Origin: Candidatus Omnitrophota bacterium
GTDB taxonomy: Bacteria > Omnitrophota > Gorgyraeia > Gygaellales > Profunditerraquicolaceae
DNA length: 64,000 bases
Direction: 5' to 3'
Assembly (NCBI GenBank): GCA_041653115.1
Contig: JBAZGA010000004.1
Location: 4,660-68,659 of the forward strand
Below, in pieces: positions 20,040-36,229 of this stretch; positions within the stretch are counted from its first letter, which is position 1; the number at the start of each line of letters is the position of its first letter. The notes beneath the pieces were generated by a model that saw only the letters and a list, made by a program, of their open reading frames with translations, had not been told where the DNA came from and did no database searches. Both the position numbers and the translations under genes were made by a program.

Positions 20040-20921
20040 TTAACTAGCCTCCCGCTGCCAGGACGCCTCTGTTAACAATAACTCTATTACCCTGCGCGGC
20101 ATATGGTCGTCCAGGGGTATATTTTCTTTCTTGGCTATCTCGGCCAAAACCAGGTAAATCTTGACCTGTTTCTTTGCCTCGGGCTCTAATTTTTCCTTTA
20201 ATTCTTTTTCCTGTTCCTCGATTTTCCCCCGCTCCATGCCTTTTAACGCCAAATCCACCTTTGCCTGCCGGAGTAATTCCTCTAATTGCCGGCTGACTAA
20301 AGAAGCAGGCACTTTAAAATCCAAATCGCCGCTAATCTTTTCGATAATTCCCTCTTCGATTTTATGCCTCTGGAGGCTCTCCTTCTCGATAAAAATCTGC
20401 CTTTCTATTACCTTCTCCAATTCGGCTAAATCGGGGAACCCCTGGCTTTTGGCAAAGTTATCGTCCAGGGCATCAAGCTTCCTTGATTCTTTCAGGGAAT
20501 CAAGGTTGCGCTTTAACTCGTCGGGGTTTACCTCTATTTTCTTGTAATTTACCTTGAGCCCTTTGTAGTCTTTAAGTTTGATTTCGGGGCTGACCTCAAC
20601 CGTTGCCGTGAAAGCCAGGCTGGTCCGGTCTAACTTAACCTCGGATATTTCCGGCAGACCCAGGACATCCAAACCTTCCTTTTGGACCGCCTCCTGATAT
20701 AACCCGGGGATTAATTCCTTCAAAACCTGCTCCTGCGCGTGGCTGGAAAAATTCTTTTCCAGGATATCGCGCGGGGCGTGCCCCGGCCGAAAACCCGGAA
20801 TCTTTGCTTCCTGCGCTATTTTTTTAAAGACGTCTTCAAATTTATCCTTTACCACATCGCCGGTCACTGCGATAGTGAGCTGCCGCTTCGTGCTGTCGAT
20901 TTTTTTGACTTCTGTTTTCAT
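20040..20921 (-). CDS. tig: trigger factor, short form lacking the central PPIase domain
   Basis: 293 aa. N-terminal ribosome-binding signature GFRPGHAPR, and the tig-clpP order is conserved. At 293 aa against ~430 aa for the canonical protein, the FKBP domain is absent. Confidence 0.7.
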
Positions 20922-20942: not shown

Positions 20943-21665
20943 TCACATGCTGAACTTCTCACCCAGATAAATCTCCCGCGCCTTGGGGTTATTGATTAAT
21001 TCTCCGGCAGTACCGGTAATCAGGATTTTCCCCTCGGCAATCAAATAAGCCCGGTCGGTGATAGAGAGCGTCTCCCGGACATTATGGTCGGTAAGTAGAA
21101 TCCCCAGCCCCCTATCCCTTAATTCCTTGATAATCTCCTGCGCCTCGTTGACCACAATCGGGTCAATGCCGGAAAAGGGCTCGTCCAAAAGAATAAAAGA
21201 AGGGTTGGTAACCAGCGCACGGGTGATTTCCAGGCGCCTTCTTTCTCCGCCCGATAAAGTATAAGCCTTATTCTTGGCTAAATGCGCGATATTCAACTCT
21301 TCCAGCAGGTTTTTCAGCCGCTGTTTCCTTTGGCTCTTGCCCAGCGGCAGCGTTTCCAGTATCGCCATAATATTTTCTTCTACGGTCAGTTTCCTGAAAA
21401 TTGAAGCTTCCTGCGCCAGATAACCGATCCCGAAACGCACCCGCCCATGAATCGGCAAAGAGGTGATATCGCGGTTATCGAAGGTAATTGTCCCGCGGTT
21501 AGGCGTGATTACGCCGACAATCATATAAAAAGTGGTGGTCTTGCCTGCGCCGTTAGGGCCTAAGAGCCCGACTATTTCGCCGCGCTTGACCAGAATATCT
21601 ACGCCCTTGACGACTTCTCTGCCGTCGTAAGACTTGGACAATTCTTTAATTTCCAAAAGCCGCAT
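20943..21665 (-). CDS. lptB: LPS export ABC transporter ATP-binding protein
   Basis: 240 aa. Walker A GPNGAGKTT, LSGGERRRLEI signature, Walker B LLDEP; adjacent to the lptC/A-like gene. Confidence 0.88.
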   Translation of the reverse strand: MRLLEIKELSKSYDGREVVKGVDILVKRGEIVGLLGPNGAGKTTTFYMIVGVITPNRGTITFDNRDITSLPIHGRVRFGIGYLAQEASIFRKLTVEENIMAILETLPLGKSQRKQRLKNLLEELNIAHLAKNKAYTLSGGERRRLEITRALVTNPSFILLDEPFSGIDPIVVNEAQEIIKELRDRGLGILLTDHNVRETLSITDRAYLIAEGKILITGTAGELINNPKAREIYLGEKFSM

Positions 21666-21678
21666 TAAACCCTTCCCG

Positions 21679-22602
21679 CTAATTGCTCATTAGGTCGTTA
21701 AAATCTTCGCTGGAATAGATAATCAACCTCGGCCTGCCTATGAGCGTGACCTTTTTTTCCAGCGCCGTATAAACTGCTTCGTCGCTATAAGTAATATTCT
21801 CGCCGCGCACGGTTTTCACATTGCCGCGGGCAATAATCCTGTCAATGCTGGTGCCCATCAAAAGCGGGTCTTTCCCGTCTTTGCCTGCTGCGCCTGAATT
21901 ATCTTTTTTGGCGGCGAAATAAACGTCCATCGTATCGCTGTAAATCTGGGAATCCACTCTCTCCACCTTGACATTATTCTTAAAGGTAGCGATATTCTTT
22001 TCGTAATCTATTTCTAACGGCCCGTCGCAGGTAATGATGGTGGCGTTCTCGGCGCTGGCAAGCTCTTCTTTTTCAGGCGCCTGAGGGCTGATCTTCACCG
22101 TTACCTCTTTCTCCAGGGCCATTTTATTCAGATTAGGCCTGCCCAGGGCGCCGCGGGCAGTCGTCTCCATCGTCTCTTTTTTTATATTCACGACGTCTTT
22201 GGTCGAAACAACTTCATTCGCCCTGTCCCAATCCAGGGAATCGGTGAGCAGCCTCCCTCCGGATGAGGTGGTAATCACTACGTTCTGCTCTACGTGTATC
22301 TTGCCGCTTTCTTTATCAAAATCACCCTTATCCGCCGTAAGCTTAACGTCCTCTTTTTCTCCGTACATATTACCGACGATATCCTTGAGCTTGATGATAT
22401 TGTCAAAGATATCCGCGGATTTACCTGAAAGATCCCAGGACTTTTTTCCTTTTTCTCCGAAGCCCGATAAGGAAAACTCGCTGATCTGCTGGTCGGCGTC
22501 GGCGGTATTTTCTGCCTGCTTCGGGGTTTTTTGTTCCCGGGCATAGACAAGAGAAGCAAAAAGGAAGACGAAAATAAAAGCAGTTATAAACCTCTTAGGC
22601 AT
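21679..22602 (-). CDS. LptC/LptA-family (OstA-like) LPS transport periplasmic protein
   Basis: 307 aa. N-terminal anchor/signal, then beta-jellyroll OstA-like repeats. Its position between kdsC and lptB matches the yrbK-yhbN arrangement. Confidence 0.6.
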   Translation of the reverse strand: MPKRFITAFIFVFLFASLVYAREQKTPKQAENTADADQQISEFSLSGFGEKGKKSWDLSGKSADIFDNIIKLKDIVGNMYGEKEDVKLTADKGDFDKESGKIHVEQNVVITTSSGGRLLTDSLDWDRANEVVSTKDVVNIKKETMETTARGALGRPNLNKMALEKEVTVKISPQAPEKEELASAENATIITCDGPLEIDYEKNIATFKNNVKVERVDSQIYSDTMDVYFAAKKDNSGAAGKDGKDPLLMGTSIDRIIARGNVKTVRGENITYSDEAVYTALEKKVTLIGRPRLIIYSSEDFNDLMSN

Positions 22603-23122
22603 CGTAAAGCCCTATGCACTCCTGCCATTTCCCCTGTGACTTCAGGATTAACTCAGCTACCTCGCGCACCGCGCCCCGGCCGCCGAGTTTCAAGGTGATG
22701 TAGGCGGCGGCTTGCTTGATTTCCGGGCAGGCGTTAAATACCGCGATGGGCAAACCCACCCTTTTCATCAGGCATAAATCCACTAAGTCATCCCCGACAA
22801 AACAGATTTCCTCGCGGCTGACCTTATACTTCTTCAATATTCTATCCAGGACGCTGCTTTTAGGGGAAACATCGGCAAAGACTTCCTCTACGCGCATATC
22901 TCTGGCGCGCGGTTTGAGCGTGCGCGAGCCCTTGGCGGTAATCAGCAGAGTCGGAATGCCGGATTTTTTCAGCAAATAAACCCCTAAGCCGTCATGCACG
23001 TCAAAGAACTTGGAATCCCGGCCGCGGGAATCATAGATGATCCGGCCGTCAGTAAGAACGCCGTCTACGTCCAAGAGCAGTAATTTGATTTTTTTCGCTT
23101 TCTCTAAGATACCTGCTTCCAT
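22595..23122 (-). CDS. kdsC: 3-deoxy-D-manno-octulosonate 8-phosphate phosphatase (HAD)
   Basis: 175 aa. LLLLDVDGVLTDGRIIY...FVGDDLVD motifs of KdsC. Confidence 0.88.
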   Translation of the reverse strand: MEAGILEKAKKIKLLLLDVDGVLTDGRIIYDSRGRDSKFFDVHDGLGVYLLKKSGIPTLLITAKGSRTLKPRARDMRVEEVFADVSPKSSVLDRILKKYKVSREEICFVGDDLVDLCLMKRVGLPIAVFNACPEIKQAAAYITLKLGGRGAVREVAELILKSQGKWQECIGLYDA

Positions 23123-23149
23123 AATTTTAGCCTAAAAGCCCAAAGAAAA

Positions 23150-23177
23150 ATAATACCATAACTACGGGGAAAATCAA
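23150..23177 (-). promoter_or_regulatory. sigma70-like promoter (-35 TTGATT, 16-nt spacer, -10 TATTAT) about 30 nt upstream of kdsC
   Basis: On the minus strand it reads TTGATT-N16-TATTAT. The same roughly 40-nt element recurs at 25712-25739 upstream of the 812-aa pilin-like gene. Confidence 0.5.
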
Positions 23178-23252
23178 GGGAATGTTTTCTAATTCTACGG
23201 GGGGGGCACTTACGGGATTGAGCGGTATAGGGTACGGGATTAAGCTGAAAAC

Positions 23253-25691
23253 TTAAAGAGGGCCGATAATATCTTCTCGGATATTCGGCGTAACGCCATT
23301 ATAATCATCATCAAAGCCGGAGGTTTTAGCGTCTGCATCGCCCCTGAAACCCATAGGATTAGCTGCTCTCGGCCCGCCGTAGGCGCCCATATCGCTGCGG
23401 GAGCTATCCGGATCCAAAATAGTAGGATTGCCGCCGTCAATGATGTATTCATTACCGGTTACTGCCAGATGATAAGCGGCATCTGCGTATACCGGGGCCT
23501 TCCTGATATTTCCCGGCGGCGTTGGCGGGTCGGGTGGCACTACTGGATAAGCCAAATCTCCTACGTCTGAGTAAGTAACCGTGGTATCGCTGCTCTTATC
23601 CAGGTTAGTAGTACTTGCCGGGGTAGGATTACCGTAACATATCGTATTGATGATATTAATTTTTCCGCTGGCATATGTTTGAGTATCTATCCCATCGCCG
23701 CTGCCGGAAACAGTATTTTGCGTAATTGTATTGTTAATAACGTTAAGCACCCCTGAACTGTAAACGCTGGCGTATATTCCGCCGGCGGAATTACTCGTAA
23801 TAATATTGTTAGAAACCATACTAGATGCGCCGCTGCCTGAACATCCGATAACGATTCCGGTCCATTGATTTTGGGTAATAATGTTATTGAACAAATCAAG
23901 AGAACCGTTATTTACAGTGTAAACCGCTGTGCCCGGGTTCATGCTGGTTACGGTATTATTGTAAAACCTGACTACGCCACCGCTATCATTATTCTGCACG
24001 CGTATCCCGCCTGTAGCCCCTTCAGTACCGCTGGTCTGGCCGTTATCTTTTAAAAAATTATTGGAAATATCGCAGCTGGAATCGCTGTCGATAGCGGTAT
24101 AGATTCCGCCGCCGTGTGAGCCAGAACTATTCCCGCTAATAATATTACTGGCAAGAGCGGCCTGACTTTCATTATTAAACATGGCAAGAATCCCGCCGCC
24201 TTCAGCGCTGGCGTTATTTTCTGCGATGATATTATTGAAAATGTCAACAACGGAGGAATCGCCGTAGGTATAAACGGCTATTCCGCCGCCCCTATAGCTT
24301 GTGCTGTTCCCGCTAATGAGGTTGTTGGCAATGTTAAGGTGGGAGTTATCGCGTACCTCGGCAGCACAGATCCCCCCGCCGCCCTCCTCTCCGCTAGTTG
24401 CTTCATTGCCGATAATGGAATTGTTGGTAATATTAATGCTAGAAGTATCTGACAGTTCGAGAGAAAGGCCGCCGCCGAGATAGGCGGAGTTTTTTTCTGC
24501 GGGAGTACTGCTTCCTATGCTATTCCCGGAAATGGTCAGGTTGGCGTCATTGCTGGCGATAGCGGTTATCGCGCCGCCATCGTATGCGGAGTTCCCTAAA
24601 AAGGTATTGCCGCTGATGACAAAACCAGATCCCTCGTAGGCGATAGCAAATATTCCGCCGCCCCGCTCAGAAAAATTTCCTGTAATAATATTATTGGAAA
24701 TGGTAAGGACCAGACCTGGAGAAAAAGCCCAGATTCCGCCGCCGATTCCGCCGCCAACACCCGAGGTATTATCTTTTATGCTATTATTGATAATGGTAAT
24801 AGGGCCTTGCATGGCCTGGGCAAAGATTCCGGCGCCGTTAGCTGACATACCGTTTTGTATGGTAAAGCCGTCTATAGCAGTATTACCGGTATAATTGTGG
24901 CTGGAAGTAATTACACTTCCTTGCCGGTTACCGTCAATAATCGTCTCATAATTAGAGTCGCCCAGATGCCTTGACCAGGTGATGTTGTCATAAGCGCCTT
25001 CCAGGGTCAGAGATTTATTGATGACAATACTCTCAACATAGGGTTGCTTATCGTTGGAAGAAACCTGGACGATATCGCTATTCGAGGCAGCGTCAATTGC
25101 TTCCTGAATGCCTGCGTAATAAGCCTTGATTGTCGTCCTTGAGGCATCTACTACTCTTACCAAACCGGCGCCCTTTGGGATACGGCAGAAGGCTAAGCTC
25201 TGCAGATAAGAGGACTTGTCAGCACGCTTATTGGGGTCTTGGGCTTCCAGGGTAATCCTGATGCCGCGGAAAATCTCAGCTGCGCCCAGACTTTCCAAGC
25301 CTTCCAGATTAAAGGTCTGGACATAGGGCAGGATAAGTTGAAAGTCGGCGGGCTGAGTAATATCCGGCCGGTAGCATAATTTTTTGTTTAAAGGATCAAT
25401 GGAATCCAGGTAATACTCGCTGGTGACTTCTGAGCCGGTAGGCGGCTTTTTAAAGAGCCGGAAAGAAGTGCCCGCTGCAGGGACAATTACGGAATTGGAT
25501 TCCTCGACCTCCCTGACCATCAGCTCCATCGCGTAAGAGGTACTCTGAAAGAGGAGAGCGCGGTAAATGCCCTTGTTGAACATCTGCAGCAAGCCGATCT
25601 GCATGGCATTTACACCCAGGACAATGGTGGCGATGATGGAGGTGGCGATCAGTAATTCGACGAGGGTAAGGGATTGCTTGGGCCTCTTCAT
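23253..25691 (-). CDS. type IV pilin-like (class III signal peptide) protein fused to a right-handed parallel beta-helix domain, paralog 1
   Basis: 812 aa. N-terminus MKRPKQS|LTLVELLIATSIIATIVLG (prepilin-type cleavage/methylation region, E at +5). The body is rich in NNIIxGN / GGGI beta-helix repeats. The C-terminal ~70 aa are shared with paralog 2. Confidence 0.75.
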   Translation of the reverse strand: MKRPKQSLTLVELLIATSIIATIVLGVNAMQIGLLQMFNKGIYRALLFQSTSYAMELMVREVEESNSVIVPAAGTSFRLFKKPPTGSEVTSEYYLDSIDPLNKKLCYRPDITQPADFQLILPYVQTFNLEGLESLGAAEIFRGIRITLEAQDPNKRADKSSYLQSLAFCRIPKGAGLVRVVDASRTTIKAYYAGIQEAIDAASNSDIVQVSSNDKQPYVESIVINKSLTLEGAYDNITWSRHLGDSNYETIIDGNRQGSVITSSHNYTGNTAIDGFTIQNGMSANGAGIFAQAMQGPITIINNSIKDNTSGVGGGIGGGIWAFSPGLVLTISNNIITGNFSERGGGIFAIAYEGSGFVISGNTFLGNSAYDGGAITAIASNDANLTISGNSIGSSTPAEKNSAYLGGGLSLELSDTSSINITNNSIIGNEATSGEEGGGGICAAEVRDNSHLNIANNLISGNSTSYRGGGIAVYTYGDSSVVDIFNNIIAENNASAEGGGILAMFNNESQAALASNIISGNSSGSHGGGIYTAIDSDSSCDISNNFLKDNGQTSGTEGATGGIRVQNNDSGGVVRFYNNTVTSMNPGTAVYTVNNGSLDLFNNIITQNQWTGIVIGCSGSGASSMVSNNIITSNSAGGIYASVYSSGVLNVINNTITQNTVSGSGDGIDTQTYASGKINIINTICYGNPTPASTTNLDKSSDTTVTYSDVGDLAYPVVPPDPPTPPGNIRKAPVYADAAYHLAVTGNEYIIDGGNPTILDPDSSRSDMGAYGGPRAANPMGFRGDADAKTSGFDDDYNGVTPNIREDIIGPL

Positions 25692-25711
25692 TTATCCCCT
25701 TTCCAACAAAA

Positions 25712-25739
25712 ATAATACCATAGCTATAGTGGAAATCAA
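25712..25739 (-). promoter_or_regulatory. sigma70-like promoter copy (-35 TTGATT, 16 nt, -10 TATTAT) upstream of pilin-like paralog 1
   Basis: Near-identical to the element at 23150-23177. Followed by the RBS AAAGGGGA and the ATG at 25691. Confidence 0.5.
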
Positions 25740-25780
25740 GGAATGTTTTGATTGACTGATGAACGGCAGGAAAGAATCTT

Positions 25781-27871
25781 TTAAAACGTACCGATGATAT
25801 CTTCCCGGTATGGCGTAGAGCCATCATCGGGGACGCCGGAATTAGGCAGGGTGCCTGTAAAACCTATGGTAGAAGTTGCTCCTGGCCCGCCATAGGCGCC
25901 CATGTCGCTACGGGAGCCGCCCGGGTCCAGGATAGCAGGATCGCCGCCGTCAATAATATATTCGTTACCGGTTGCTGCAAGATGATAAGCTGCATCTGCA
26001 TACACAGGAGCCTTATCAATATTTGTTTCCGGAGATACCGGCGGCACCGGATAACCTGTACCGCCGATGTCTGAATAGTTCTGAGAAAACACGCCTGAAC
26101 CTGTCGTAGAGATGCTATTAGCGGTATTATTATAATATATTGAATTGACTAAGGAAAAAGTGCTGCCGCTGCCAAGAGAAAGGTCTATTGCCGCTCCGCT
26201 ACCCGCTGAGTTTCCGGTAATGGTATTATTCGCCAGAAAAATAACAGCGTCATAGATATCGGCCTGAATTCCGCCAAACATACCCATGGAGACAGAATTG
26301 CTGGCGATAATGTTGTTGGTTATATGCATAGTATGTCCACTATAGTAAACGTAAGCCTTGATTCCGCCGGCCCTGCCAAAAGTACTATCAGAATGATTCT
26401 GGCTTATATCATTGTTGGCGATGTAGAAGGCAGTGCCTTGGCTGCGGGCATATATTCCGCCGCCGCCATCCCGGTTATTGCTATTTCCTCTTATACTATT
26501 GCTGGTGATGTAAAAAATGCCGTAGCTACAGGCAGCATATATTCCGCCGCCAGAGCCGGCATAAGAAATATTTTCTGTGATAAGATTGTTATTGATGCGA
26601 AAGTTACGAGTAGATCCGAAGGTGGTAGCGTATATTCCCCCGCCGCCAATATCGCTAGACTGAACATTATTTCTTATGGAATTATTGCTGATAACAACTT
26701 CAGCGCCGGAAGCCCGTATTCCGCCGCCAACATAACCTCTATTATCGTCTATAATATTATTGGTAATAAGCGCGGAAGAATCCGGCTCGAGACCAATACC
26801 TATTCCGCCGCCCTCAATATAATTATAAAAGATACCGCTCTTCTTCCCGTTCCCCGTTATGCTGTTGTTGGCGACTGTTAGGGTGACTGGCCCCTGGTCG
26901 GAATAATCAGCAAGATGAATTCCGCCGCCGGGATTTGCGGTAATAGTATTGTTGATGATGTTGAAAGAACCGCCTCCTCTGGGCGCAATACGGATTCCGC
27001 CATCACCGCTATTGACAGAGCTGAGGGACATCCCCCCATTTGTAATGATAAAGCTGTCTATGCTCACAGTTAAACCGGAGCCCTGGCAGTTAATTACAGT
27101 TCCGTCATCCTGGCCGTCGACGGTAGTATAAGTATTCACGCGGTCTTGAATATTAAAATTCGTATCGTAGCCTCCTTTGAGGGTAAGGGATTTGTTAACC
27201 GTAACGTTTTCCCTGAAAGTCCCGTCAAAGATACCGGAATTATTGCCCATACAGCGCACTTCATCGCCGGAAGACGCAGCGTCCACGGCATCCTGGATAG
27301 TACTGTAATAAGCCTTGATGGTGCCGCCGGAATCCCGTAATTGCACGAGATTACCGGCATTCTTGGGGATCCGGCAGAAAGCCAGGCTCTGCAGGTAAGA
27401 AGATTTATCCGTGCGTTTGTTAGGGTCTTCTGCTTCCAGGGTAATCCTGATGCCGCGGAAGGTATTAGGCGTGCCTAAGGCTTCTAGGCCCTCCGGCGTA
27501 AAGGCCTTGACATAGGGAAGGATGACTTGGAAATCGGCAGGTTGAGTAATATCTGCTCGGTAGCATAACTTCTTGTTCAAAGGGTCTGTGGAATCCAGGT
27601 AATACTCGCTGGTTTTTCCGGAATCGGTATTGACCAACTGGAAATAAGTTGCTCCTGTAGTGATGATTACGGAATTAGACTCCTCAACCTCTCTGACCAT
27701 CAGCTCCATCGCGTAAGAGGTGCTCTGGAAGAGGAGAGCGCGGTAAATGCCCTTGTTGAACATCTGCAGCAAGCCGATCTGCATGGCATTTACACCCAGG
27801 ACAATGGTGGCGATGATGGAGATGGCGATCAGTAATTCGACGAGGGTAAGGGATTGCTTGGTGGGTTTCAT
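25781..27871 (-). CDS. type IV pilin-like protein fused to a parallel beta-helix domain, paralog 2
   Basis: 696 aa. First ~230 aa about 85% identical to paralog 1 (MKPTKQSLTLVELLIAISIIATIVLG...). Divergent beta-helix repeat body; shared C-terminus KAPVYADAAYHLAATGNEYIIDGG...SRSDMGAYGGP. Confidence 0.75.
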   Translation of the reverse strand: MKPTKQSLTLVELLIAISIIATIVLGVNAMQIGLLQMFNKGIYRALLFQSTSYAMELMVREVEESNSVIITTGATYFQLVNTDSGKTSEYYLDSTDPLNKKLCYRADITQPADFQVILPYVKAFTPEGLEALGTPNTFRGIRITLEAEDPNKRTDKSSYLQSLAFCRIPKNAGNLVQLRDSGGTIKAYYSTIQDAVDAASSGDEVRCMGNNSGIFDGTFRENVTVNKSLTLKGGYDTNFNIQDRVNTYTTVDGQDDGTVINCQGSGLTVSIDSFIITNGGMSLSSVNSGDGGIRIAPRGGGSFNIINNTITANPGGGIHLADYSDQGPVTLTVANNSITGNGKKSGIFYNYIEGGGIGIGLEPDSSALITNNIIDDNRGYVGGGIRASGAEVVISNNSIRNNVQSSDIGGGGIYATTFGSTRNFRINNNLITENISYAGSGGGIYAACSYGIFYITSNSIRGNSNNRDGGGGIYARSQGTAFYIANNDISQNHSDSTFGRAGGIKAYVYYSGHTMHITNNIIASNSVSMGMFGGIQADIYDAVIFLANNTITGNSAGSGAAIDLSLGSGSTFSLVNSIYYNNTANSISTTGSGVFSQNYSDIGGTGYPVPPVSPETNIDKAPVYADAAYHLAATGNEYIIDGGDPAILDPGGSRSDMGAYGGPGATSTIGFTGTLPNSGVPDDGSTPYREDIIGTF

Positions 27872-28272
27872 GGCTGGATAACCAGGCCGAACAGCTGCTC
27901 CTGCTCTGCTCTTCCGTTACTCTCGGTCCAGCCGGTAGTAACGGTTATCTTTTTCCCTTCTGTAATTTGCTCTACGGTATATGAACGGCTGGCGCCGAAA
28001 ATATCTTTCAAATCGCAACTTGGCAGCGGAGAAATAGACTCTGCGGAATAAGGACCTCCCACATTCAATAAGGCATCGTCATAAGGCGTAATCAAAAGCG
28101 TCTCTAAGATTTCGCGGTCAAAACTCTGCGCCTGTAAACGGCGATGCGTAGTTTCGTTCCTGTTCTTGACATAAATAAAGCCGGCGGATAAAGCCAATAC
28201 GCCGACAGCGACAATGCTCACCGCGACGATTACCTCCAAGATGGTAAATGCTTTTAATTTATGTATACCCAT
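27868..28272 (-). CDS. type IV pilin/pseudopilin-like minor pilin
   Basis: 134 aa. LKAFTILEVIVAVSIVAVGVLAL N-terminal methylation-type helix; ATGA overlap with the downstream gene. Confidence 0.75.
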   Translation of the reverse strand: MGIHKLKAFTILEVIVAVSIVAVGVLALSAGFIYVKNRNETTHRRLQAQSFDREILETLLITPYDDALLNVGGPYSAESISPLPSCDLKDIFGASRSYTVEQITEGKKITVTTGWTESNGRAEQEQLFGLVIQP

Positions 28273-28646
28273 TCTATGATTTGGGCTGTGGAGCCGGCTT
28301 TCCTGACTGTCGCCTGAATTTTTTTATCCGCGGCTTCGTAAGTGCACACGGAAAGCACGCTGTATTCATCGGCGGCAACGGAAGAGATGGTAATCGCTAT
28401 ATTCTCCCCTTCTCCGGCGAGGATCCAGCCTGTCTCGCTGTCAAAATTATCATTCTTTATTTTATATACCCCCTTCTGTATCCCGGCTTCGGCAAAATAA
28501 AAGGCCTTCGTGCGATTGAGAGTATAATAACTTAAAAAGGTATTGCTAAGTGTAAATTTTATCCCGATAGCGATTAAAACAATCAAAAGCAGGATTATCG
28601 CCAGCACAATCATTAACGCAACTGCCTTAGAATTTAAACGCGTCAT
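28254..28646 (-). CDS. PilX-N-like minor pilin/pilus assembly protein
   Basis: 130 aa. TM helix followed by KAFYFAEAGIQ, resembling the PilX N-terminal domain motif. Overlaps kdsD by 4 nt. Confidence 0.6.
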   Translation of the reverse strand: MTRLNSKAVALMIVLAIILLLIVLIAIGIKFTLSNTFLSYYTLNRTKAFYFAEAGIQKGVYKIKNDNFDSETGWILAGEGENIAITISSVAADEYSVLSVCTYEAADKKIQATVRKAGSTAQIIEWVYIN

Positions 28647-29608
28647 ACCAACCCTGCCTTTAATAAATCCTGCACATCCAAAAGCCCGACCGGCCGCCTC
28701 TTTTTATCCACCACCGGCAATTCATCGATTTTCTTTTCGCGTAAAATCCTTAAGGCTTCTGCCGCCAGCATCTCCTCCCCGACTACAGTTGGCCGATACG
28801 TCATTGCCAGCTTTACCTTACGCTGGGAAAGGTTAGGGTCGCTTTCCAGGTGCCGGCGCAGGTCACCGTCGGTAAAAATCCCCACTAATTTGCCTTTCCT
28901 GTCCACTACCGAGGCGCTGCCGCAGCGCGCTTGGGTAATTTTTACCAATACCTCGGAAATTTTTTTATTCTCTCCCACTACCGGATTGTTTGCGCCGCTG
29001 CGCATAATATCCTTAACCTTTAAAAGCAGCCTTTTTCCCAGCAATCCGCCGGGATGATAAAAAGCGAAGTCTTTTTCCTTAAATCCCTTCGATTCCAGCA
29101 GGCAGACTGCCAGCGCGTCGGCCATCGCCAGGGTAGCTGTGGTGGAAGCGGTAGGAGCCAGTCCCAGAGGGCAAGCTTCTTTTTTTACTGAAACATCCAA
29201 CGCCACATCGCTATATTTGGCTAAAAGCGAATTTAAACTGCCGGTAAGGGCGATAATTTTTGCGCCGATTTTCTTTAAGAGCGGCAGGAGCTCTTTCATC
29301 TCCTGGTTTGCGCCGCTATTGGAAAGAATAATCACCGTGTCATCTGCGGTAACCTTGCCCAAATCCCCGTGGATTGCCTCAGCCGTATGCAGGAAGAGGC
29401 TCGGCGTGCCGGTGGAAGCAAGTGTCGCGGAGAACTTCTGGGCGATAATCCCGGTCTTGCCCATGCCGCTGACTACCACCCTGCCCTTGGTCTTTAGAAT
29501 TATGTCCAGGGCCTTTTGAAAACTCTTTCCCAGGCGCGGCTTTAAACCTCTGATTGCTTCCGATTCAATATCCAAAACCTCTTTTGCGCGTTTAAGCGTA
29601 TTCATCAT
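28643..29608 (-). CDS. kdsD: arabinose-5-phosphate isomerase (SIS plus tandem CBS)
   Basis: 321 aa. SIS motif VVVSGMGKTGIIAQK, followed by a CBS pair. Confidence 0.88.
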   Translation of the reverse strand: MMNTLKRAKEVLDIESEAIRGLKPRLGKSFQKALDIILKTKGRVVVSGMGKTGIIAQKFSATLASTGTPSLFLHTAEAIHGDLGKVTADDTVIILSNSGANQEMKELLPLLKKIGAKIIALTGSLNSLLAKYSDVALDVSVKKEACPLGLAPTASTTATLAMADALAVCLLESKGFKEKDFAFYHPGGLLGKRLLLKVKDIMRSGANNPVVGENKKISEVLVKITQARCGSASVVDRKGKLVGIFTDGDLRRHLESDPNLSQRKVKLAMTYRPTVVGEEMLAAEALRILREKKIDELPVVDKKRRPVGLLDVQDLLKAGLV

Positions 29609-31168: not shown

Positions 31169-32182
31169 TTATTTTATTCTTTCCCGCAATTCCTGCCGGC
31201 TGGTGACTGCCGTGCCTAATTTTCCAACGACAATTCCCGCGGCAAAATTAGCCAGGTGAGCCGCCTCTATCTTTTTTGCCTGGCAGGAAAGAGCCAGGGT
31301 AAAGGTGGCGATAACCGTATCCCCGGCGCCGGAGACATCAAAAACCTCCTGGGCCACGGTAGGGATGTGGGTGATACGCCCGCTCCTGTCAAACAGGCGC
31401 ATCCCTTGCTCGCCCAGAGTGACTAAAAGCGAATCTAAATTCAGGTACTGCATAATTTCTTTAGCGGCTAAGTCAATATCGCTGTCCGTAAATAAACGGT
31501 CGGTATTGACTTTAAAGGAATTCGTGCAGTCTTTTATCTTTAAATTCCGCACGGCATTTTCCAGCTCGCGGCGGTTAGGAGTAATCGCGGTCACCCCGCG
31601 GTAAAATTGGAAATGTTCTTCCTTGGGGTCGACGGTAATGATTTTTCTGCTTTTTCGGGCCAGCTTAATAAGTTCCCCCAAAAGATGCGCATTAATTACG
31701 CCTTTGCCGTAGTCTTCAATAATGATGCCGTCAAAATCCTCAATATTTTTCCGGATAAACTTAATGATTCTTTCGTTCAGTTCCCGGGAAAGCGAATCGG
31801 TATGCTCCCAATCAAGCCTCACTACCTGCTGATGGCCGGCAACAATCCGGCTCTTGACCGTAGTGTGCCTTTTTGCTTCGACAAATATACCTTCGGCGTT
31901 TATCTTTCTTTTTTTTAACTCCGTTAATAAAATATCCCTATTTTCATCCTTGCCGATCACGCCCACCAGCGAGACCTTGGCGTCAAGGGCACGGATATTA
32001 TGCGCCACGTTAGCCGCTCCTCCCGGCACATAAGTCCTTTTCTTTGCCCAGACTACCGGGACCGGCGCCTCCGGGGAAATCCTCTCGACATCGCCCCAGA
32101 TGTATTCGTCTAAAATCAAGTCGCCGATTACCAGAATCTTGGCCTTAGGGAATTTATTGACGATATTTTTCAGGTCTTTCAT
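31169..32182 (-). CDS. D-glycero-beta-D-manno-heptose-7-phosphate kinase (HldE/RfaE domain I, PfkB family), stand-alone
   Basis: 337 aa. KILVIGDLILDEYIWGDVERISPEAPVPV (RfaE kinase N-terminus) and the PfkB GAGDT motif; no adenylyltransferase domain. Confidence 0.8.
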   Translation of the reverse strand: MKDLKNIVNKFPKAKILVIGDLILDEYIWGDVERISPEAPVPVVWAKKRTYVPGGAANVAHNIRALDAKVSLVGVIGKDENRDILLTELKKRKINAEGIFVEAKRHTTVKSRIVAGHQQVVRLDWEHTDSLSRELNERIIKFIRKNIEDFDGIIIEDYGKGVINAHLLGELIKLARKSRKIITVDPKEEHFQFYRGVTAITPNRRELENAVRNLKIKDCTNSFKVNTDRLFTDSDIDLAAKEIMQYLNLDSLLVTLGEQGMRLFDRSGRITHIPTVAQEVFDVSGAGDTVIATFTLALSCQAKKIEAAHLANFAAGIVVGKLGTAVTSRQELRERIK

Positions 32183-33108
32183 ATCTTATCAATGACTGCC
32201 TGGGCTAATAAGGGAAGCATTATCTCATGATGCCCGACGATATAATAACCTTTACCCCCGGGCTCTACCGGACGGGCAACCACATTCTGCGCCGGACGGT
32301 AATGATGGATCATGTCGAAATTGGCAGTGGTAAAATTTTTTACCCGGTTGCCGAGGTTACGCGCTAAGTTGAGGGCTTTTAAAAATACTTCGGGCAATAT
32401 CACTGCCGAGCCGAAATTTAAGGCTGCGCCCCCCTGATTTAACCGGCAAACTTCTTCTACAAGCTGGTGAAAATCCCGCAAACTCCCTTCCGCAGTCAGG
32501 CCGGCATCAAAAGAAGGGTGCTGATGGATAATATCCGTGCCGATGGCTGTAAACACGCAAACCGGCACCTTGTATTTAGCGGCATTATAAAGCAGGCTTA
32601 AATGCTTATAGCGTAATTTTGCGGCGCTGATTTTAGCGGCGACAGCCTCCCCTAATCCCGAACCCTCTGACACACCTTCACTTACAGCTCTGTTAAGAAA
32701 ATCTGCGGTCTCCCTCCCCATCCCGAATCTGCCGGTTTTTAAATTCTCGCCTACGTCTTCGGAGGTTTTCCCCTGAAAGGCAACCTCAAAATCGTGGATG
32801 ATCCCTGCTCCGTTTAAGCAAACGCAGGTGATTACCTTCTTTTTTAAGAGCTCGATTACTACCGGATTAAGGCCGCACTTAATCACGTGCGCCCCGGCCA
32901 TAAAAATCACGGCTTTCTTCTTTTTGCGGGCCTTGACTATTGCCTGGCTGATATTGTGTAAATCTCTGGCTTTTAAGATACCGGGAAGTGAATGATAGAA
33001 CGCGGAAAAACTCTTTGCTTTGGCCGGCGGCTTGGCAAAATCGCCGAGCTTGACCTTGCTGTACCTTGTCCTTACCGAATACGTCTTTACTTTTTTTATA
33101 TTAATCAT
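32179..33108 (-). CDS. deoxyhypusine synthase (DHS)-family protein
   Basis: 309 aa. Blocks align with DHS by eye: AVIFMAGAHVIKCGL...VITCVCLNGAGIIHDFE against CTIFLGYTSNLISSGIRE...VLVTTAGGVEED, and FTTANFD against NTAQEFD. ATGA-coupled to the hldE kinase gene. Confidence 0.45.
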   Translation of the reverse strand: MINIKKVKTYSVRTRYSKVKLGDFAKPPAKAKSFSAFYHSLPGILKARDLHNISQAIVKARKKKKAVIFMAGAHVIKCGLNPVVIELLKKKVITCVCLNGAGIIHDFEVAFQGKTSEDVGENLKTGRFGMGRETADFLNRAVSEGVSEGSGLGEAVAAKISAAKLRYKHLSLLYNAAKYKVPVCVFTAIGTDIIHQHPSFDAGLTAEGSLRDFHQLVEEVCRLNQGGAALNFGSAVILPEVFLKALNLARNLGNRVKNFTTANFDMIHHYRPAQNVVARPVEPGGKGYYIVGHHEIMLPLLAQAVIDKI

Positions 33109-33194: not shown

Positions 33195-35219
33195 TCAAGT
33201 CTTCAAAACTTCATCCGCCACGTCAACGACGTCATTGACCGTAATCGCCTTCAGGCAGGCGAATTCTTTAACGCAGTCATGCGCCAGGCACTGGATGCAG
33301 CCGACTTCCTTATGGAGAAACCTGTCCTTCCCTCCCAGCGGCCCCCAACGCTTGGGGCTTAAGCCTTGCTGGTTCCTGCCAAAGATAGAAATTACCGGCG
33401 TGCCGACCGCGGAAGCGATATGCACCGGCCCGGAATCATTGGAGATAAACAACGCGCATCTTTTCAAGACGCTGGCTAATTGGCTGACCGATGTCTTGCC
33501 GGCAAGATTAACCGCGTAATGATGCATGTTTTTCTGCATATCCTGCGCTAATTTTATGTCTTTGGGCCCGGCAATCACTAAAACCTTGAAAGCGTATTTT
33601 TCAATTAACCGGTCGGCGACCTGGGCAAACCTCTCTTTTGGCCAGATCTTGGACGGGCAGCTGGCGCCCGGATGGACCGCTAATAATTTATCCGCCCTGG
33701 CAATCCCCTCTTTTTCCAAAAGCTGCTCTACCCAGGCTTCTGATTCCGGCTTTATCGGCATCAGCGGCTTTTTCTCCTGCGGCTCAATGCCTAAATATCT
33801 TAATAAATCCAGACTATATTCCAATTCATGTTTCTCCCCGGTTTGTTTGCTGTGTTTTATTCTATCGGTAAGCAGAAACCCCAGCTTGCGGTCATAACCT
33901 ATTCTTCTGGGTATGCCGGCGAGAAATGCGACTAAATGCGCGCGGTTTGTCGGATGCAGGATGACCGCCAGGTCAAATTTCTTTTTCTTCAGTCTCGCGG
34001 CAAACTTTAGGGACCCGGCCCAACTGCGCTGCTTTCCCTCTTTATCATAAATGATTACGTCGTCCAGGTAAGGATTGCCGTCCACGATATCCTTGGCATA
34101 CGGGGAAACCATCATCGCCAGGTAGGCATAGGGATACTCGTCCCTTAAGACCTTGATTACCGGCGTTGACAAAAGCACGTCTCCGATTCTATCCGTACGG
34201 ATAACCAATATGCGTTTGTATATATCTTCGTCGCTTTGAAATGTGAAATTTGAGCGATGAATTAATATGTTCCTTATTTCTCTCAACGCATCCTCAACCC
34301 TTACCATCTTCATGCACTGTAAGTCTCCGAACCGGCATTGCGCCTTCTGGCAGGGCCGGCAAAAAATTTCTTTTTTTAGCAGCGCGGAAGTTTCCGACCA
34401 GGGGCCGTATTTTACTGCGCTGGTAGGGCCGAATATCGCCACGACAGGTATATTCAAATAGCTGGCTAAATGCAGCAGCGCGCTATCGTTAGTTAAACAT
34501 AGCCTCGCGCCCTTCAATAAACAAGCGAGTTCCGGGATACTGGTTTTTCCGGCCAAATCCACTACCGGATAGCGGGAATGTTCGGCGATATACTTAGTCA
34601 AGGGGGCATCGTCTTTATCCCCTGCCAAAATTACTTTTAACTTAAACTCCCCTACAAGAGCCGGGATTAACTCTAAGAATCTATCGGCGGGCCAACGCTT
34701 GATGTGGCTGCGCGCCCCGGGAGATATAACTATTACTTTATCCTTTTCGCTAATGCCGTTTTCCCGCAGCAGCCCCCGGATATATTCCTTGTCCTCCGGC
34801 TTGATATATAAAGAGCTGTGCGGCAATCCTTCTGTTTTTAATTTTAAATTCCGGATTTTATAGAGGTGCCTTTCCTTCATGTGCCTGATCTTTCCCATAA
34901 TCCGCAAGAGAGACGCAGTCCGGTATTTACTGGGAAGAAGCCAGCCAAAAAGGCTGTTACGTAAATCAACCACGAGGTCGAATTTATCTTTTTTTAATTC
35001 CCCGAATAATCCTATCTTTTCTCTAAGCTTTGCCCGTTTATCATAAATAATCAACCGTTTTATACAGGGATTGTTTTCAAAAATTTCTTTCGGCCGGGGC
35101 CCGGTCATCACCGTGATTTTTGCCTCGGGAAAATTTTCCCTTAAGGCGTCCAGGACCGGTAAGGTCAGGATACAATCGCCGATATTGCTTAAGGTAATGA
35201 ATAAAATCTTATTAATCAT
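33195..35219 (-). CDS. tandem double GT9 (ADP-heptose:LPS heptosyltransferase) fusion protein
   Basis: Two complete GT9 units (KILFITLSNIGDCIL... and ILVIRTDRIGDVLL...), each ending in a CxxC-containing tail. I prefer the start at the ATG 35217-35219 (MINKIL), which gives an ATGA overlap with the upstream gene; the ORF track extends to 35267. Confidence 0.8.
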   Translation of the reverse strand: MINKILFITLSNIGDCILTLPVLDALRENFPEAKITVMTGPRPKEIFENNPCIKRLIIYDKRAKLREKIGLFGELKKDKFDLVVDLRNSLFGWLLPSKYRTASLLRIMGKIRHMKERHLYKIRNLKLKTEGLPHSSLYIKPEDKEYIRGLLRENGISEKDKVIVISPGARSHIKRWPADRFLELIPALVGEFKLKVILAGDKDDAPLTKYIAEHSRYPVVDLAGKTSIPELACLLKGARLCLTNDSALLHLASYLNIPVVAIFGPTSAVKYGPWSETSALLKKEIFCRPCQKAQCRFGDLQCMKMVRVEDALREIRNILIHRSNFTFQSDEDIYKRILVIRTDRIGDVLLSTPVIKVLRDEYPYAYLAMMVSPYAKDIVDGNPYLDDVIIYDKEGKQRSWAGSLKFAARLKKKKFDLAVILHPTNRAHLVAFLAGIPRRIGYDRKLGFLLTDRIKHSKQTGEKHELEYSLDLLRYLGIEPQEKKPLMPIKPESEAWVEQLLEKEGIARADKLLAVHPGASCPSKIWPKERFAQVADRLIEKYAFKVLVIAGPKDIKLAQDMQKNMHHYAVNLAGKTSVSQLASVLKRCALFISNDSGPVHIASAVGTPVISIFGRNQQGLSPKRWGPLGGKDRFLHKEVGCIQCLAHDCVKEFACLKAITVNDVVDVADEVLKT

Positions 35220-36229
35220 AATTTTATTTTCTCGAATACTTCTTCCGGGGTAATTGCCTTCATGCAATGGTTATTTTTGCAATCTATCGCATAACAGGGG
35301 ATGCGGCAGCCTACTTTTTTCTGGATGACGATCACGTTAGCCGACGGGTAAGGCCCGGTTACCGCCGGGGAGGTGGGGCCAAAAAGCGCGATGATTTTTT
35401 TTGCCCCGACTGCATTGGCGATATGCAGCGGCCCGGTGTCCGCGGTAATAAATAAATCCGCCTTCTTTGCCAGCGCCCCCAGCTGCTTGAGGTTAAATAC
35501 GCCGCAGGCCAATAGGGGCTTGTCTTTCATTAAATTTTTAATTTCCTGTGCCAGGGGTATATCGGAAACGCTGCCGCTAACGATTACCTTGGCATTTAAT
35601 TTATGGATTAATTTATCCGCCAGGAGCGCCCAGTATTCCTTTGGCCAGCGCTTGGGAAGCCAGTTGCCCCCGGGGTTAATTACCGCCAGAAAATCACCCT
35701 TGCCGACTGAGTTTTTGCTTAAAAAGCTGTCTACCGACGCCGTATCTTCATCACCCGTAAAAAAGTCCAGATACCTGTCTTCAAGCCGCAAGCCGGCCTT
35801 CTCAAGGATATTCAGGTAATAATCGATGCGGTGCAGTGAATCTTTAGCCGGCGGCAGGATACCCTGGGTTAAGAGAAAAGCCCGCTTCCTGGTATAGTAA
35901 CCTATCCTGCTGGGTATCCCTGCCAGGCGACAGAGCAGCGCGCGGGTAAAAGAACGGTGCAATAAAAATGCGGTATCGAAGTTTTTCCCTTTCAAGAATT
36001 TTACAAAATTTAATTTCGCGACAATCCCTTTATGCCGGTCATCGTCGTCAAAGATAATGATTTCATCCAGATGGGGATTGCCTTTTAAAACCGGGTAACA
36101 GCGGCTGGGGATGACGCAGGCGAGAAAGCTCTGCGGAAAATTCCGCCGGATATTCCTGATCGCGGCGGTAGAAAATAATACGTCTCCCAGCCAGTTCACG
36201 TTAAAAATAAGTATGCGTTTATTCTCCAT
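35216..36229 (-). CDS. GT9 lipopolysaccharide heptosyltransferase
   Basis: 337 aa. ILIFNVNWLGDVLFSTAAIRNI and GPLHIANAVG motifs. Confidence 0.8.
   Translation of the reverse strand: MENKRILIFNVNWLGDVLFSTAAIRNIRRNFPQSFLACVIPSRCYPVLKGNPHLDEIIIFDDDDRHKGIVAKLNFVKFLKGKNFDTAFLLHRSFTRALLCRLAGIPSRIGYYTRKRAFLLTQGILPPAKDSLHRIDYYLNILEKAGLRLEDRYLDFFTGDEDTASVDSFLSKNSVGKGDFLAVINPGGNWLPKRWPKEYWALLADKLIHKLNAKVIVSGSVSDIPLAQEIKNLMKDKPLLACGVFNLKQLGALAKKADLFITADTGPLHIANAVGAKKIIALFGPTSPAVTGPYPSANVIVIQKKVGCRIPCYAIDCKNNHCMKAITPEEVFEKIKL

What the first reader, a model, noticed from the sequence alone, without database searches (positions are those of the whole stretch)
22595..29608. Pilin-like cassette inserted inside the conserved kdsD-kdsC-lptC-lptA-lptB arrangement
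In many Gram-negatives kdsD, kdsC, lptC, lptA and lptB are contiguous. Here kdsD (28643-29608) and kdsC (22595-23122) are separated by about 5.4 kb. The insert encodes four proteins whose N-termini are all type IV pilin-like (hydrophobic helix with Glu at +5). They are a PilX-N-like protein, a 134-aa pseudopilin, and two large proteins of 696 and 812 aa in which a pilin N-helix is fused to a right-handed parallel beta-helix body. Gene overlaps (ATGA, 4-nt) suggest co-transcription with kdsD and the upstream LPS genes. The architecture resembles a minor-pilin/tip-adhesin set (PilV/PilX plus a PilY1-like adhesin replaced by pilin-fused beta-helix proteins). The cleavage site has S or A at -1 instead of the canonical G, which is atypical. 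This is the strongest candidate in the window for an undescribed surface or secretion module, physically wired into LPS biogenesis genes.
Basis: partly seen in the sequence, partly recalled or inferred. Interest (0 to 1): 0.72.

Follow-up and report, generated by a model that had tools for sequence, protein, structure and literature searches.

The report
Pilus-tip pilins carrying beta-helix modules
Four genes lying between two lipopolysaccharide genes of an uncultured Omnitrophota bacterium most likely encode a type IV pilus tip complex: two small minor pilins and two large pilins that each carry a variable beta-helix, probably for binding or cutting surface sugars. This is an unstudied variant of the known "modular pilin" design, not a new LPS-linked machine.

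Summary
On the minus strand, kdsD (28643-29608) and kdsC (22595-23122) are 5.5 kb apart. Between them lie four genes for pilin-like proteins of 130, 134, 696 and 812 aa. Three of them have a class III signal with Glu5. The 130-aa protein lacks Glu5, as K/PilX-type cap subunits do.

The two large proteins are tandem paralogs. Each has a GspJ/XcpW-like pilin domain, a pectin-lyase-fold right-handed beta-helix and a conserved C-terminal tail.

The unit of two small pilins plus a pilin::beta-helix protein recurs in rare metagenomic relatives in at least seven genomic settings:
- A sister Omnitrophota contig has it at the same kdsD/kdsC site, with five paralogs.
- One close relative has it directly upstream of pilM-pilO-pilQ.
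- The other settings have no link to LPS.

The best reading is therefore a type IV filament tip complex that displays interchangeable beta-helix effectors (adhesin or glycan enzyme). Its position in the LPS cluster is specific to this lineage.

The design belongs to the known class of modular pilins. The pilin plus right-handed beta-helix architecture was already listed in a 2021 survey but never studied. I rate it a new variant of a known kind, of moderate interest.

The parts
28643..29608 (-). kdsD (arabinose-5-phosphate isomerase, SIS + 2 CBS). It is the upstream neighbour, and its stop codon overlaps the start of the first pilin gene (ATGA).
   Evidence: TIGR00393 313 bits; NF008141 323 bits; overlap read
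28254..28646 (-). 130-aa PilX/K-like minor pilin. Leader MTRLNSKA, mature VALMIVLAI..., no Glu5. Proposed cap subunit of the tip complex.
   Evidence: No Pfam hit. AF2 model pLDDT 86: helix 6-64 plus a 5-strand sheet, the pilin lollipop. Best Foldseek hit is the S. sanguinis minor pilin PilA 7o5y (prob 0.95, TM 0.44-0.47, E 0.14). JGI names it and three relatives 'Tfp pilus assembly protein PilX'. Only 12 clusters in 5.8 billion proteins.
27868..28272 (-). 134-aa PilV/GspI-like minor pilin. Leader MGIHKLKA, mature FTILEVIVA... with Glu5.
   Evidence: N_methyl 21.2 bits (equal to the cut-off). TIGR02532 17.8 bits, above 16.3. PilV TIGR02523 E 1e-4 and GspI TIGR01707 E 1.6e-3, both below cut-off. 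The family profile hits true pilins in the PDB. Orthologs are present in every related cassette.
27356..27871 (-). 696-aa protein, residues 1-172: class III signal (MKPTKQS|LTLVELLIA, Glu5) plus a GspJ/XcpW-like pilin domain, the 'carrier' module.
   Evidence: AF2: helix 10-64 and sheet 67-165. Foldseek XcpW 3nje_A prob 1.00, TMt 0.51, E 0.018. The domain profile finds stand-alone 150-200-aa N_methyl pilins over its whole length and pilins in the PDB.
25781..27355 (-). 696-aa protein, residues 173-696: right-handed parallel beta-helix (about 175-600), a generic beta-helix cap (DYHL...DMGAYGGP) and a conserved tail (...YREDIIGTF).
25712..25739 (-). Promoter-like element TTGATT-16-TGgTATTAT in the 89-nt gap before the 812-aa gene.
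   Evidence: It is 86% identical over 43 nt to the element before kdsC, so the duplication unit was the gene plus its downstream spacer.
23253..25691 (-). 812-aa tandem paralog: the same class III signal and J-like pilin domain, a divergent and longer beta-helix body, and the same C-terminal tail (...IREDIIGPL).
   Evidence: Against the 696-aa protein: N-domain 81% identical, body 34%, C-terminus 70%. The first 180 nt of DNA are 95% identical. PF13229 54.9 bits.
23150..23177 (-). The same promoter-like element before kdsC.
22595..23122 (-). kdsC (Kdo-8-phosphate phosphatase), the downstream neighbour. It overlaps the lptC-lptA fusion gene by 8 nt.
   Evidence: TIGR01670 153 bits, above the 107 cut-off
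20943..22602 (-). Context: a 307-aa LptC-LptA fusion (21679-22602) and lptB (20943-21665).
   Evidence: PF06835 + PF03968; TIGR04406 365 bits

Best explanation
The four genes encode the priming/tip complex of a type IV filament, most likely the type IVa pilus that nearly all Omnitrophota encode.

Proposed mechanism (inferred):
1. All four proteins enter the inner membrane through their class III signal, and a prepilin peptidase removes the 7-8-residue leader after a small residue (A or S here).
2. The 130-aa subunit lacks Glu5 and sits on top, like K/PilX or S. sanguinis PilA.
3. The 134-aa I/PilV-like subunit and one J/XcpW-like subunit pack beneath it through their alpha1 helices and nucleate the fibre.
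4. The J-like subunit is a modular pilin. Its pilin domain is the carrier. A 430-600-residue right-handed beta-helix fused to its C-terminus is the effector displayed at the pilus tip.
5. The beta-helix binds, or possibly cleaves, a glycan on a partner or prey cell or on a surface.
6. Tandem paralogs (2 here, 5 in the sister genome) keep the carrier and swap the body, giving alternative specificities.

Shown: the sequence motifs, the predicted folds, conservation of the three-gene unit, its adjacency to pilMOQ in a relative, and the pattern of divergence.

Inferred: processing of the proteins, tip location, stoichiometry, and the ligand or activity.

The position between kdsD and kdsC belongs to one lineage. 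It probably gives only co-expression with envelope genes, with extra promoters before the 812-aa gene and kdsC.
For: - Class III motifs occur on three adjacent genes and nowhere else among 1,295 ORF candidates.
- N_methyl/TIGR02532 hits, and the family profiles hit bona fide pilins in the PDB.
- AF2 lollipop folds for the 130-aa protein (pLDDT 86) and for residues 1-165 of the 696-aa protein.
- The N-domain matches the T2SS minor pseudopilin XcpW/GspJ (prob 1.00, TMt 0.51).
- The 130-aa model is closest to the tip minor pilin PilA of S. sanguinis. JGI calls it and three relatives PilX.
- The triad is conserved in every related locus: L001, L002-L004, L005, L007-L010, L011 and L013. L012 is cut off upstream and shows only a partial small ORF before the large gene.
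- In L011 the triad is followed by HTH-PilM(N)-PilO-x-PilQ.
- The N-domain profile merges into stand-alone 150-200-aa N_methyl pilins. The large proteins are therefore a minor pilin plus an added module.
- Cassette proteins are 28-44% identical between the window and L001, against 54-87% for the flanking proteins. Paralog carrier domains are 42-81% identical and bodies 23-38%. This is the pattern expected of an exposed, diversifying effector.
- The beta-helix resembles glycan-active enzymes, phage receptor-binding proteins and adhesins.
- T4aP genes are present in nearly all Omnitrophota (PMC10066038).
- Precedents exist: modular pilins displayed at the tip with a Glu5-less partner (PMC8179133, PMC9934059) and ComZ (PMC6561018).
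Against: - The window has no prepilin peptidase, major pilin or PilB/C/M-Q genes. It holds only a TadA/CpaF-like ATPase (636-1895) and an MshEN-PilZ protein.
- The 696- and 812-aa proteins score below the Pfam N_methyl cut-off, and the 130-aa protein has no HMM hit at all.
- The I-, J- and K-like assignments rest on sub-threshold HMM hits and weak Foldseek E-values (0.018 and 0.14).
- There is no H-like fourth subunit, and the K-like subunit lacks the alpha-domain of GspK.
- Ser at -1 is not a documented substrate residue for bacterial prepilin peptidases (from my own knowledge).
- Adjacency to pilMOQ was seen in one locus only.
- Whether a beta-helix of this size can pass the secretin was not tested.
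Confidence: 0.62

Rival explanations
1. Envelope glycan-modifying enzymes. The beta-helix proteins are periplasmic or surface polysaccharide epimerases, lyases or hydrolases that act on the cell's own LPS or exopolysaccharide. The pilin-like helix only anchors them in the membrane. The two small proteins are accessory anchors. The position in the kds/lpt cluster reflects function.
Against: The same triad occurs in at least five settings unrelated to LPS and next to pilMOQ. Fold similarity across the pectin-lyase superfamily is generic, at 9-20% identity. The DPH epimerase motif is absent. Housekeeping glycan enzymes are not expected to diverge to 23-38% identity between tandem copies while the flanks stay at 54-87%. 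Two dedicated Glu5/no-Glu5 pilin partners are unnecessary for a simple anchor.
Confidence: 0.1
2. The triad belongs to another type IV filament and not to a pilus. It could be the tip of a T2SS-type pseudopilus. It could instead be a bindosome-like surface assembly, in which class III signals serve only to export proteins and tether them at the surface (as for the archaeal sugar-binding proteins of Sulfolobus).
For: The N-domain's best structural match is a T2SS pseudopilin, XcpW. GspI, GspH and XpsI models give weak hits. The -1 residues A and S are typical of archaeal class III signals (my own knowledge). There is no pilus machinery in the window.
Against: The only machinery seen next to a triad is PilM/PilO/PilQ of T4aP type. 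T2SS minor pseudopilins normally lie within gsp operons, and none is seen in any of the 13 loci. Omnitrophota commonly have T4aP.
Confidence: 0.15
3. A tip-located DNA receptor for natural transformation, analogous to ComZ/PilA2 of Thermus.
For: ComZ is a pilin with a large beta-solenoid that binds DNA at the pilus tip with a small partner pilin. The window also encodes DprA (47764-48909).
Against: The beta-helix here is a C-terminal fusion of the pectin-lyase type. It is not an ice-binding-like triangular solenoid inserted into the pilin sheet. The proteins are acidic overall (D+E 60/74 against K+R 41/43). Multiple hypervariable paralogs do not suit a DNA receptor. DprA lies 20 kb away and is unlinked.
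Confidence: 0.05

Closest known systems
Modular type IV pilins (S. sanguinis PilB and PilC with their Glu5-less partner PilA; Raynaud et al. 2021 PMC8179133, Shahin et al. 2023 PMC9934059)
   Same: An N-terminal pilin module carries a C-terminal effector module on a short linker. It is encoded in an operon with a small pilin that lacks Glu5. The proposed location is the pilus tip, and the role is ligand or glycan binding. The architecture IPR012902-IPR039448 (pilin + right-handed beta-helix) is already listed in their Dataset S1 with 3 proteins.
   Different: The module here is a 430-600-residue pectin-lyase-fold beta-helix, not a vWA or lectin domain. The carrier is J/XcpW-like. The organism is a diderm of the Omnitrophota. 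The effector genes are tandemly amplified (2-5 copies) with hypervariable bodies and a conserved C-terminal tail. There is no detectable sequence homology to PilA, PilB or PilC.
GspI-GspJ-GspK / PilV-PilW-PilX tip complex of T2SS and T4aP (HIJK minor pilins)
   Same: The small pilins are encoded together. One subunit lacks Glu5. One is structurally like GspJ/XcpW. One gives weak PilV/GspI HMM hits.
   Different: There are only three subunit types and no H/FimU-like gene. The K-like subunit is a minimal 130-aa lollipop without the GspK alpha-domain. The J-like subunit carries the bulky domain. No PilY1 is present.
ComZ-PilA2 of Thermus thermophilus (PMC6561018)
   Same: A pilin with a large beta-solenoid, too bulky for the fibre body and so placed at the tip, paired with an adjacent small minor pilin.
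   Different: In ComZ the solenoid is inserted into the pilin beta-sheet. It is triangular and like an ice-binding protein, and it binds DNA. Here the beta-helix is fused C-terminally, is right-handed and of the pectin-lyase type, and is multi-copy.
PilY1/PilC tip adhesins of T4aP
   Same: The role is functionally analogous: a large effector presented by the minor-pilin complex at the tip.
   Different: PilY1 is not a pilin and has a C-terminal beta-propeller. No such domain was detected here. Here the effector is fused covalently to a pilin.
Phage tailspikes/depolymerases and beta-helix adhesins (Vag8, PfbA, Chlamydia Pmp)
   Different: No PHROG hit and no autotransporter barrel. Attachment is through a pilin helix rather than a phage adaptor or an outer-membrane barrel.

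Membership tests
Type IV pilin / class III signal peptide proteins (PF07963, TIGR02532) | A short, basic leader ending in a small residue (Gly, less often Ala) | tested here: inconclusive
   The leaders are 7-8 residues long and contain K/R. The -1 residue is A (130, 134 aa) or S (696, 812 aa). Relatives use G, A or S: A24/G14/S12 in the large members. Ala is accepted (PMC8179133). Ser is not documented for bacterial peptidases (my own knowledge).
Type IV pilin / class III signal peptide proteins (PF07963, TIGR02532) | About 21 hydrophobic residues with Glu at +5 | tested here: met
   FTILE, LTLVE and LTLVE in the 134-, 696- and 812-aa proteins. The 130-aa protein lacks Glu5, as K-type subunits do.
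Type IV pilin / class III signal peptide proteins (PF07963, TIGR02532) | HMM score above the curated cut-off | tested here: inconclusive
   134 aa: PF07963 21.2 bits (equal to the cut-off) and TIGR02532 17.8, above 16.3. 696 aa: 19.3, and 812 aa: 17.3, both below 21.2. 130 aa: no hit.
Type IV pilin / class III signal peptide proteins (PF07963, TIGR02532) | Lollipop fold: a long alpha1 helix plus an antiparallel beta-sheet | tested here: met
   AF2: the 130-aa protein has helix 6-64 and 5 strands (pLDDT 86). The 696-aa protein has helix 10-64 and a sheet at 67-165.
Type IV pilin / class III signal peptide proteins (PF07963, TIGR02532) | Cleavage and N-methylation by a prepilin peptidase, and incorporation into a filament | not testable with these tools
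   No PilD in the 64-kb window.
HIJK minor-pilin tip complex (GspHIJK / FimU-PilVWX) | Four subunit types (H, I, J, K) encoded together | tested here: not met
   Only three types appear in every complete cassette examined. There is no H/FimU-like gene.
HIJK minor-pilin tip complex (GspHIJK / FimU-PilVWX) | A K subunit that lacks Glu5 and carries a large inserted alpha-domain | tested here: inconclusive
   No Glu5: met. The alpha-domain is absent, since the model is a plain 130-aa lollipop. PilX_N (PF14341) does not hit at E<=0.1. JGI names the protein PilX.
HIJK minor-pilin tip complex (GspHIJK / FimU-PilVWX) | J-like and I-like folds or HMM matches | tested here: inconclusive
   J: Foldseek XcpW 3nje_A prob 1.00, TMt 0.51, but E 0.018. 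I: PilV E 1e-4 and GspI E 1.6e-3, far below the cut-offs.
Modular pilins (Raynaud et al. 2021) | [quoted passage not shown] | tested here: met
   Pilin domain at 1-172 and PF13229 beta-helix at 175-600. The same InterPro architecture is listed in their Dataset S1.
ComZ-type competence pilin | A beta-solenoid inserted within the pilin beta-sheet, with DNA binding | tested here: not met
PilY1/PilC adhesins | A C-terminal PilY1 beta-propeller domain | tested here: not met
   No such Pfam or NCBIfam hit in either large protein.
Alginate C5-epimerase-like beta-helix enzymes (AlgG/AlgE) | Right-handed beta-helix fold together with the catalytic DPH(D/E) motif | tested here: not met
Kdo/LPS biosynthesis and Lpt transport genes | Homology to a known LPS gene, and conserved linkage with kds/lpt genes | tested here: not met
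   No LPS-family HMM hit. Linkage appears only in the window and L001. The other loci lie elsewhere.

The most novel reading that the evidence does not exclude
Ultra-small, probably host-dependent Omnitrophota arm their type IV pili with a swappable set of tailspike-like glycan-recognising or glycan-degrading beta-helices, each fused to the J-type tip pilin. In effect this would be a phage-style receptor-binding arsenal mounted on a retractable fibre. It would determine which partner or prey cells are grabbed. In this lineage it would be transcribed with the cell's own Kdo/LPS genes. The conserved ...IREDIIGT(F/Y) C-terminal tail would be a new docking or maturation signal.
Probability: 0.15. 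Interest if true: 0.75.

Novelty: new variant of a known kind. Interest (0 to 1): 0.42.

Why it matters
If the reading is right, the cassette is a compact, easily recognised marker of how Omnitrophota and related uncultured bacteria adapt pili to particular surfaces. The marker is two small pilins plus one or more pilin::beta-helix genes.

The carrier module is conserved and the effector is hypervariable and multi-copy. This parallels phage tailspikes. It offers a testable route to the ligands, and so to the hosts or substrates, of an uncultured phylum thought to be predatory or symbiotic.

The finding also extends the HIJK and modular-pilin picture in two ways. The tip complex is a minimal three-subunit version in which the J subunit carries the effector. 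The family also favours Ala or Ser at the cleavage site.

The finding does not point to a new secretion machine or to a functional link between pili and LPS.

Tried and rejected
- Four look-ups for the window's own contig by exact protein found nothing. The contig is not indexed.
- The genome-contig scan with the N-domain alignment first failed for lack of conserved columns. With seven close sequences it returned one locus, L005.
- The metagenome-contig scan with the PilX-like alignment returned only the L001 contig again. As a result the ancestral kdsD-kdsC spacing in other Omnitrophota could not be surveyed.
- The word-indexed profile search with the N-domain returned only two unrelated small pilins and missed even the query proteins. 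I treat it as uninformative.
- The AFDB Foldseek library was unavailable.
- PHROGs gave no hit for the beta-helix proteins, so a direct phage tailspike origin is not supported.
- The PDB profile search for the PilX-like family returned nothing.
- I considered and rejected a recent horizontal insertion. GC content is the same as the flanks, the unit is translationally coupled to kdsD, and the same site is occupied in a genome whose flanking proteins are only 54-87% identical. The weaker GC and AT skew in the cassette is explained by the low Lys/Glu and high Ser/Thr/Asn/Gly content of secreted proteins.
- I rejected an autotransporter or Pmp reading. There is no barrel domain, and only faint Chlam_PMP hits in relatives.

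Full report
**1. What is there**

Every gene in the region is on the minus strand. In the direction of transcription the order is:
- a deoxyhypusine-synthase-like gene (32179-33108)
- a PfkB/RfaE-like kinase (31169-32182)
- kdsB, kdsA and kdsD (28643-29608)
- four ORFs of 130, 134, 696 and 812 aa
- kdsC (22595-23122)
- a 307-aa LptC-LptA fusion, lptB, a short trigger factor and clpP

Upstream lies the rest of a large LPS cluster: waaA, lpxK, an lpxL-Elm1 fusion, GT4 and GT9 glycosyltransferases and a deacetylase.

The gene junctions are as follows:
- kdsD/130-aa and 134-aa/696-aa overlap as ATGA.
- 130-aa/134-aa overlap by 19 nt.
- The 812-aa gene and kdsC each follow a spacer that carries the same promoter-like element, TTGATT-16-TGgTATTAT.

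The source is a Candidatus Omnitrophota MAG (locus tags WC321_01650/01665, 69-kb contig).

**2. Are they pilins?**

Three of the four proteins have a textbook class III motif apart from the -1 residue: KLKA|FTILEVIVA, TKQS|LTLVELLIA and PKQS|LTLVELLIA. Among 1,295 start-resolved ORF candidates in the window, only these three match a relaxed motif.

HMM scores are mixed:
- N_methyl: 21.2 bits (134 aa, equal to the cut-off), 19.3 bits (696 aa) and 17.3 bits (812 aa). TIGR02532: 17.8 bits, above its 16.3 cut-off, for the 134-aa protein.
- Family profiles hit true pilins in the PDB: geopilin, PilE1, MshA and PilA.

The 130-aa protein (NSKA|VALMIVLAI...) has no Glu5 and no HMM hit. Its AF2 model (pLDDT 86) is nonetheless a pilin lollipop. 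Its closest solved structure, though only weakly, is the S. sanguinis tip minor pilin PilA, which also lacks Glu5. JGI annotates the protein and three relatives as PilX.

**3. The large proteins**

AF2 (pLDDT 75) gives helix 10-64, a sheet at 67-165, a right-handed beta-helix at about 175-600, and a low-confidence C-terminus.

The N-domain matches the T2SS minor pseudopilin XcpW/GspJ (prob 1.00, TMt 0.51, E 0.018). A profile of this domain was searched against 1.84 billion representatives. It found 134 proteins at E<=1e-10. About 50 are large proteins (500-1,300 aa), mostly N_methyl + Beta_helix. The rest are stand-alone 150-200-aa N_methyl pilins matched over their whole length. The large proteins are thus a minor pilin with an added module.

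**4. Paralogy**

The 696- and 812-aa proteins are 81% identical in the carrier domain (the first 180 nt of DNA are 95% identical). They are 34% identical in the body and 70% in the last ~85 residues. The downstream spacer with the promoter-like element is also duplicated. The unit of duplication was therefore the gene plus its 3' spacer, so the element before the 812-aa gene is probably a copy of the kdsC promoter.

**5. Related loci**

The family is rare. The PilX-like protein has 12 clusters among 5.8 billion sequences.

| Locus | Source | Arrangement |
|---|---|---|
| L001 | JGI, 378-kb contig | Fully syntenic: rfaE-kdsB-kdsA-kdsD, 123 aa, 133 aa, five beta-helix pilins (756-874 aa), kdsC-lptCA-lptB-tig-clpP |
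| L005 | GTDB species representative | After a MiaB-like gene; Gly at -1 |
| L004, L007-L010 | ENA metagenome assemblies | Between ApbE and an H+-PPase |
| L002, L003 | JGI metagenomes | Between DsbD and radical-SAM genes |
| L013 | ENA metagenome assembly | Alone, between divergent genes |
| L012 | NCBI Omnitrophota MAG | Before radical-SAM/Memo genes |
| L011 | Logan; close to the window's clade and with the same C-terminal tail | Directly upstream of HTH, PilM(N), PilO, a PilP-like ORF and PilQ |

Between the window and L001, flanking proteins are 54-87% identical while cassette proteins are 28-44% identical.

The LPS position is therefore old within one lineage but is not a property of the module. 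The only machinery ever seen next to the module is T4aP.

**6. The -1 residue**

In the N-domain family the large members have A (24), G (14) or S (12) at -1. The small stand-alone pilins have G (74), A (8) or S (8). These counts are not phylogenetically independent. Ala is an accepted class III residue. Ser is unusual for bacteria (my own knowledge). This is a family trait, not an error.

**7. Mechanism**

The best explanation is a minimal tip or priming complex of a type IV filament. It consists of a Glu5-less cap (130 aa), an I/PilV-like subunit (134 aa) and a J-like modular pilin whose beta-helix is displayed at the tip. Alternative paralogs would give different specificities.

This fits published models for HIJK, for S. 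sanguinis PilABC and for ComZ-PilA2. It also fits the near-universal presence of T4aP in Omnitrophota. Processing, location and ligand are all inferred.

The rivals are less well supported, for the reasons given in their entries:
- self-LPS/EPS-modifying enzymes anchored by a pilin helix
- a T2SS pseudopilus or bindosome-like assembly
- a DNA receptor

**8. Known or new?**

Modular pilins are a described class. The InterPro architecture IPR012902-IPR039448 (pilin + right-handed beta-helix) appears in Dataset S1 of Raynaud et al. with three proteins, but nothing has been done with it. The papers I checked (the two Omnitrophota studies and the three pilin papers) describe none of the following:
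- the conserved three-gene unit
- the J-like nature of the carrier
- the tandem hypervariable paralogs
- the conserved ...IREDIIGT(F/Y) tail
- the A/S bias at the cleavage site
- the residence inside kds-lpt in one lineage

I rate it a new variant of a known kind, with interest 0.42. It is real and coherent and is a useful handle on Omnitrophota cell-cell interaction. It is not the LPS-wired novel secretion module that was proposed.

Noticed in passing
window 25781-25830 and 23253-23300; L001 756-aa and 786-aa paralogs; L011 1217-3748; P0004; P0013: The large pilin::beta-helix proteins share a conserved extreme C-terminal tail after the generic beta-helix cap, ...TP.IREDIIGT(F/Y). AF2 models it with pLDDT below 50. 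It is absent from the L002/L004-type members and from 3 of the 5 L001 paralogs. It might be a docking, sorting or maturation signal.
   Followed up: partly
window 25712-25739 and 23150-23177 (minus strand): The same extended -10 promoter-like element (TTGATT-16-TGgTATTAT) lies before the 812-aa gene and before kdsC. It was copied along with the gene duplication, so kdsC-lptCAB may have its own promoter.
   Followed up: partly
window 21679-22602; L001 18086-18997: LptC and LptA domains are fused in a single 303-307-aa ORF with one N-terminal anchor, in both Omnitrophota genomes. No separate lptA lies between it and lptB.
   Followed up: no
window 40189-42138, 38102-40192, 33195-35267: There are unusual fusions in the LPS cluster: lipid A acyltransferase (LpxL-like) fused to an ELM1/DUF1022-like domain, GT4 fused to GT9 heptosyltransferase, and a 690-aa GT9 protein with two Glyco_transf_9 matches.
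   Followed up: no
window 636-1895: A TadA/CpaF-like secretion ATPase (TIGR03819, 297 bits, below its cut-off) lies at the edge of the window. A Tad-type locus may continue beyond coordinate 1.
   Followed up: partly
window 51195-52064: A stand-alone 289-aa MshEN + PilZ protein carries two c-di-GMP-binding domains and no ATPase domain. It is next to a staphylococcal-nuclease-like gene (52069-52638) and about 3 kb from DprA (47764-48909).
   Followed up: no
window 20040-20921; L001 19714-20589: Trigger factor is only 291-293 aa. It has the Trigger_N and Trigger_C domains and apparently lacks the central PPIase domain, in both genomes.
   Followed up: no
P0076 / L004 (ENA k141_577771): NCBI labels the same PilX-like protein as coming from a 'Dehalococcoidia bacterium' MAG (D4S01_04835). 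L005 is labelled 'uncultured Planctomycetales'. The triad may be wider than Omnitrophota, or these contigs may be mis-binned.
   Followed up: no
window 23000-28000: GC skew and AT skew on the plus strand rise to about 0 across the cassette, against -0.1 to -0.2 in the flanks, while GC content is unchanged. This fits the low Lys/Glu and high Ser/Thr/Asn/Gly composition of secreted proteins better than foreign origin.
   Followed up: partly
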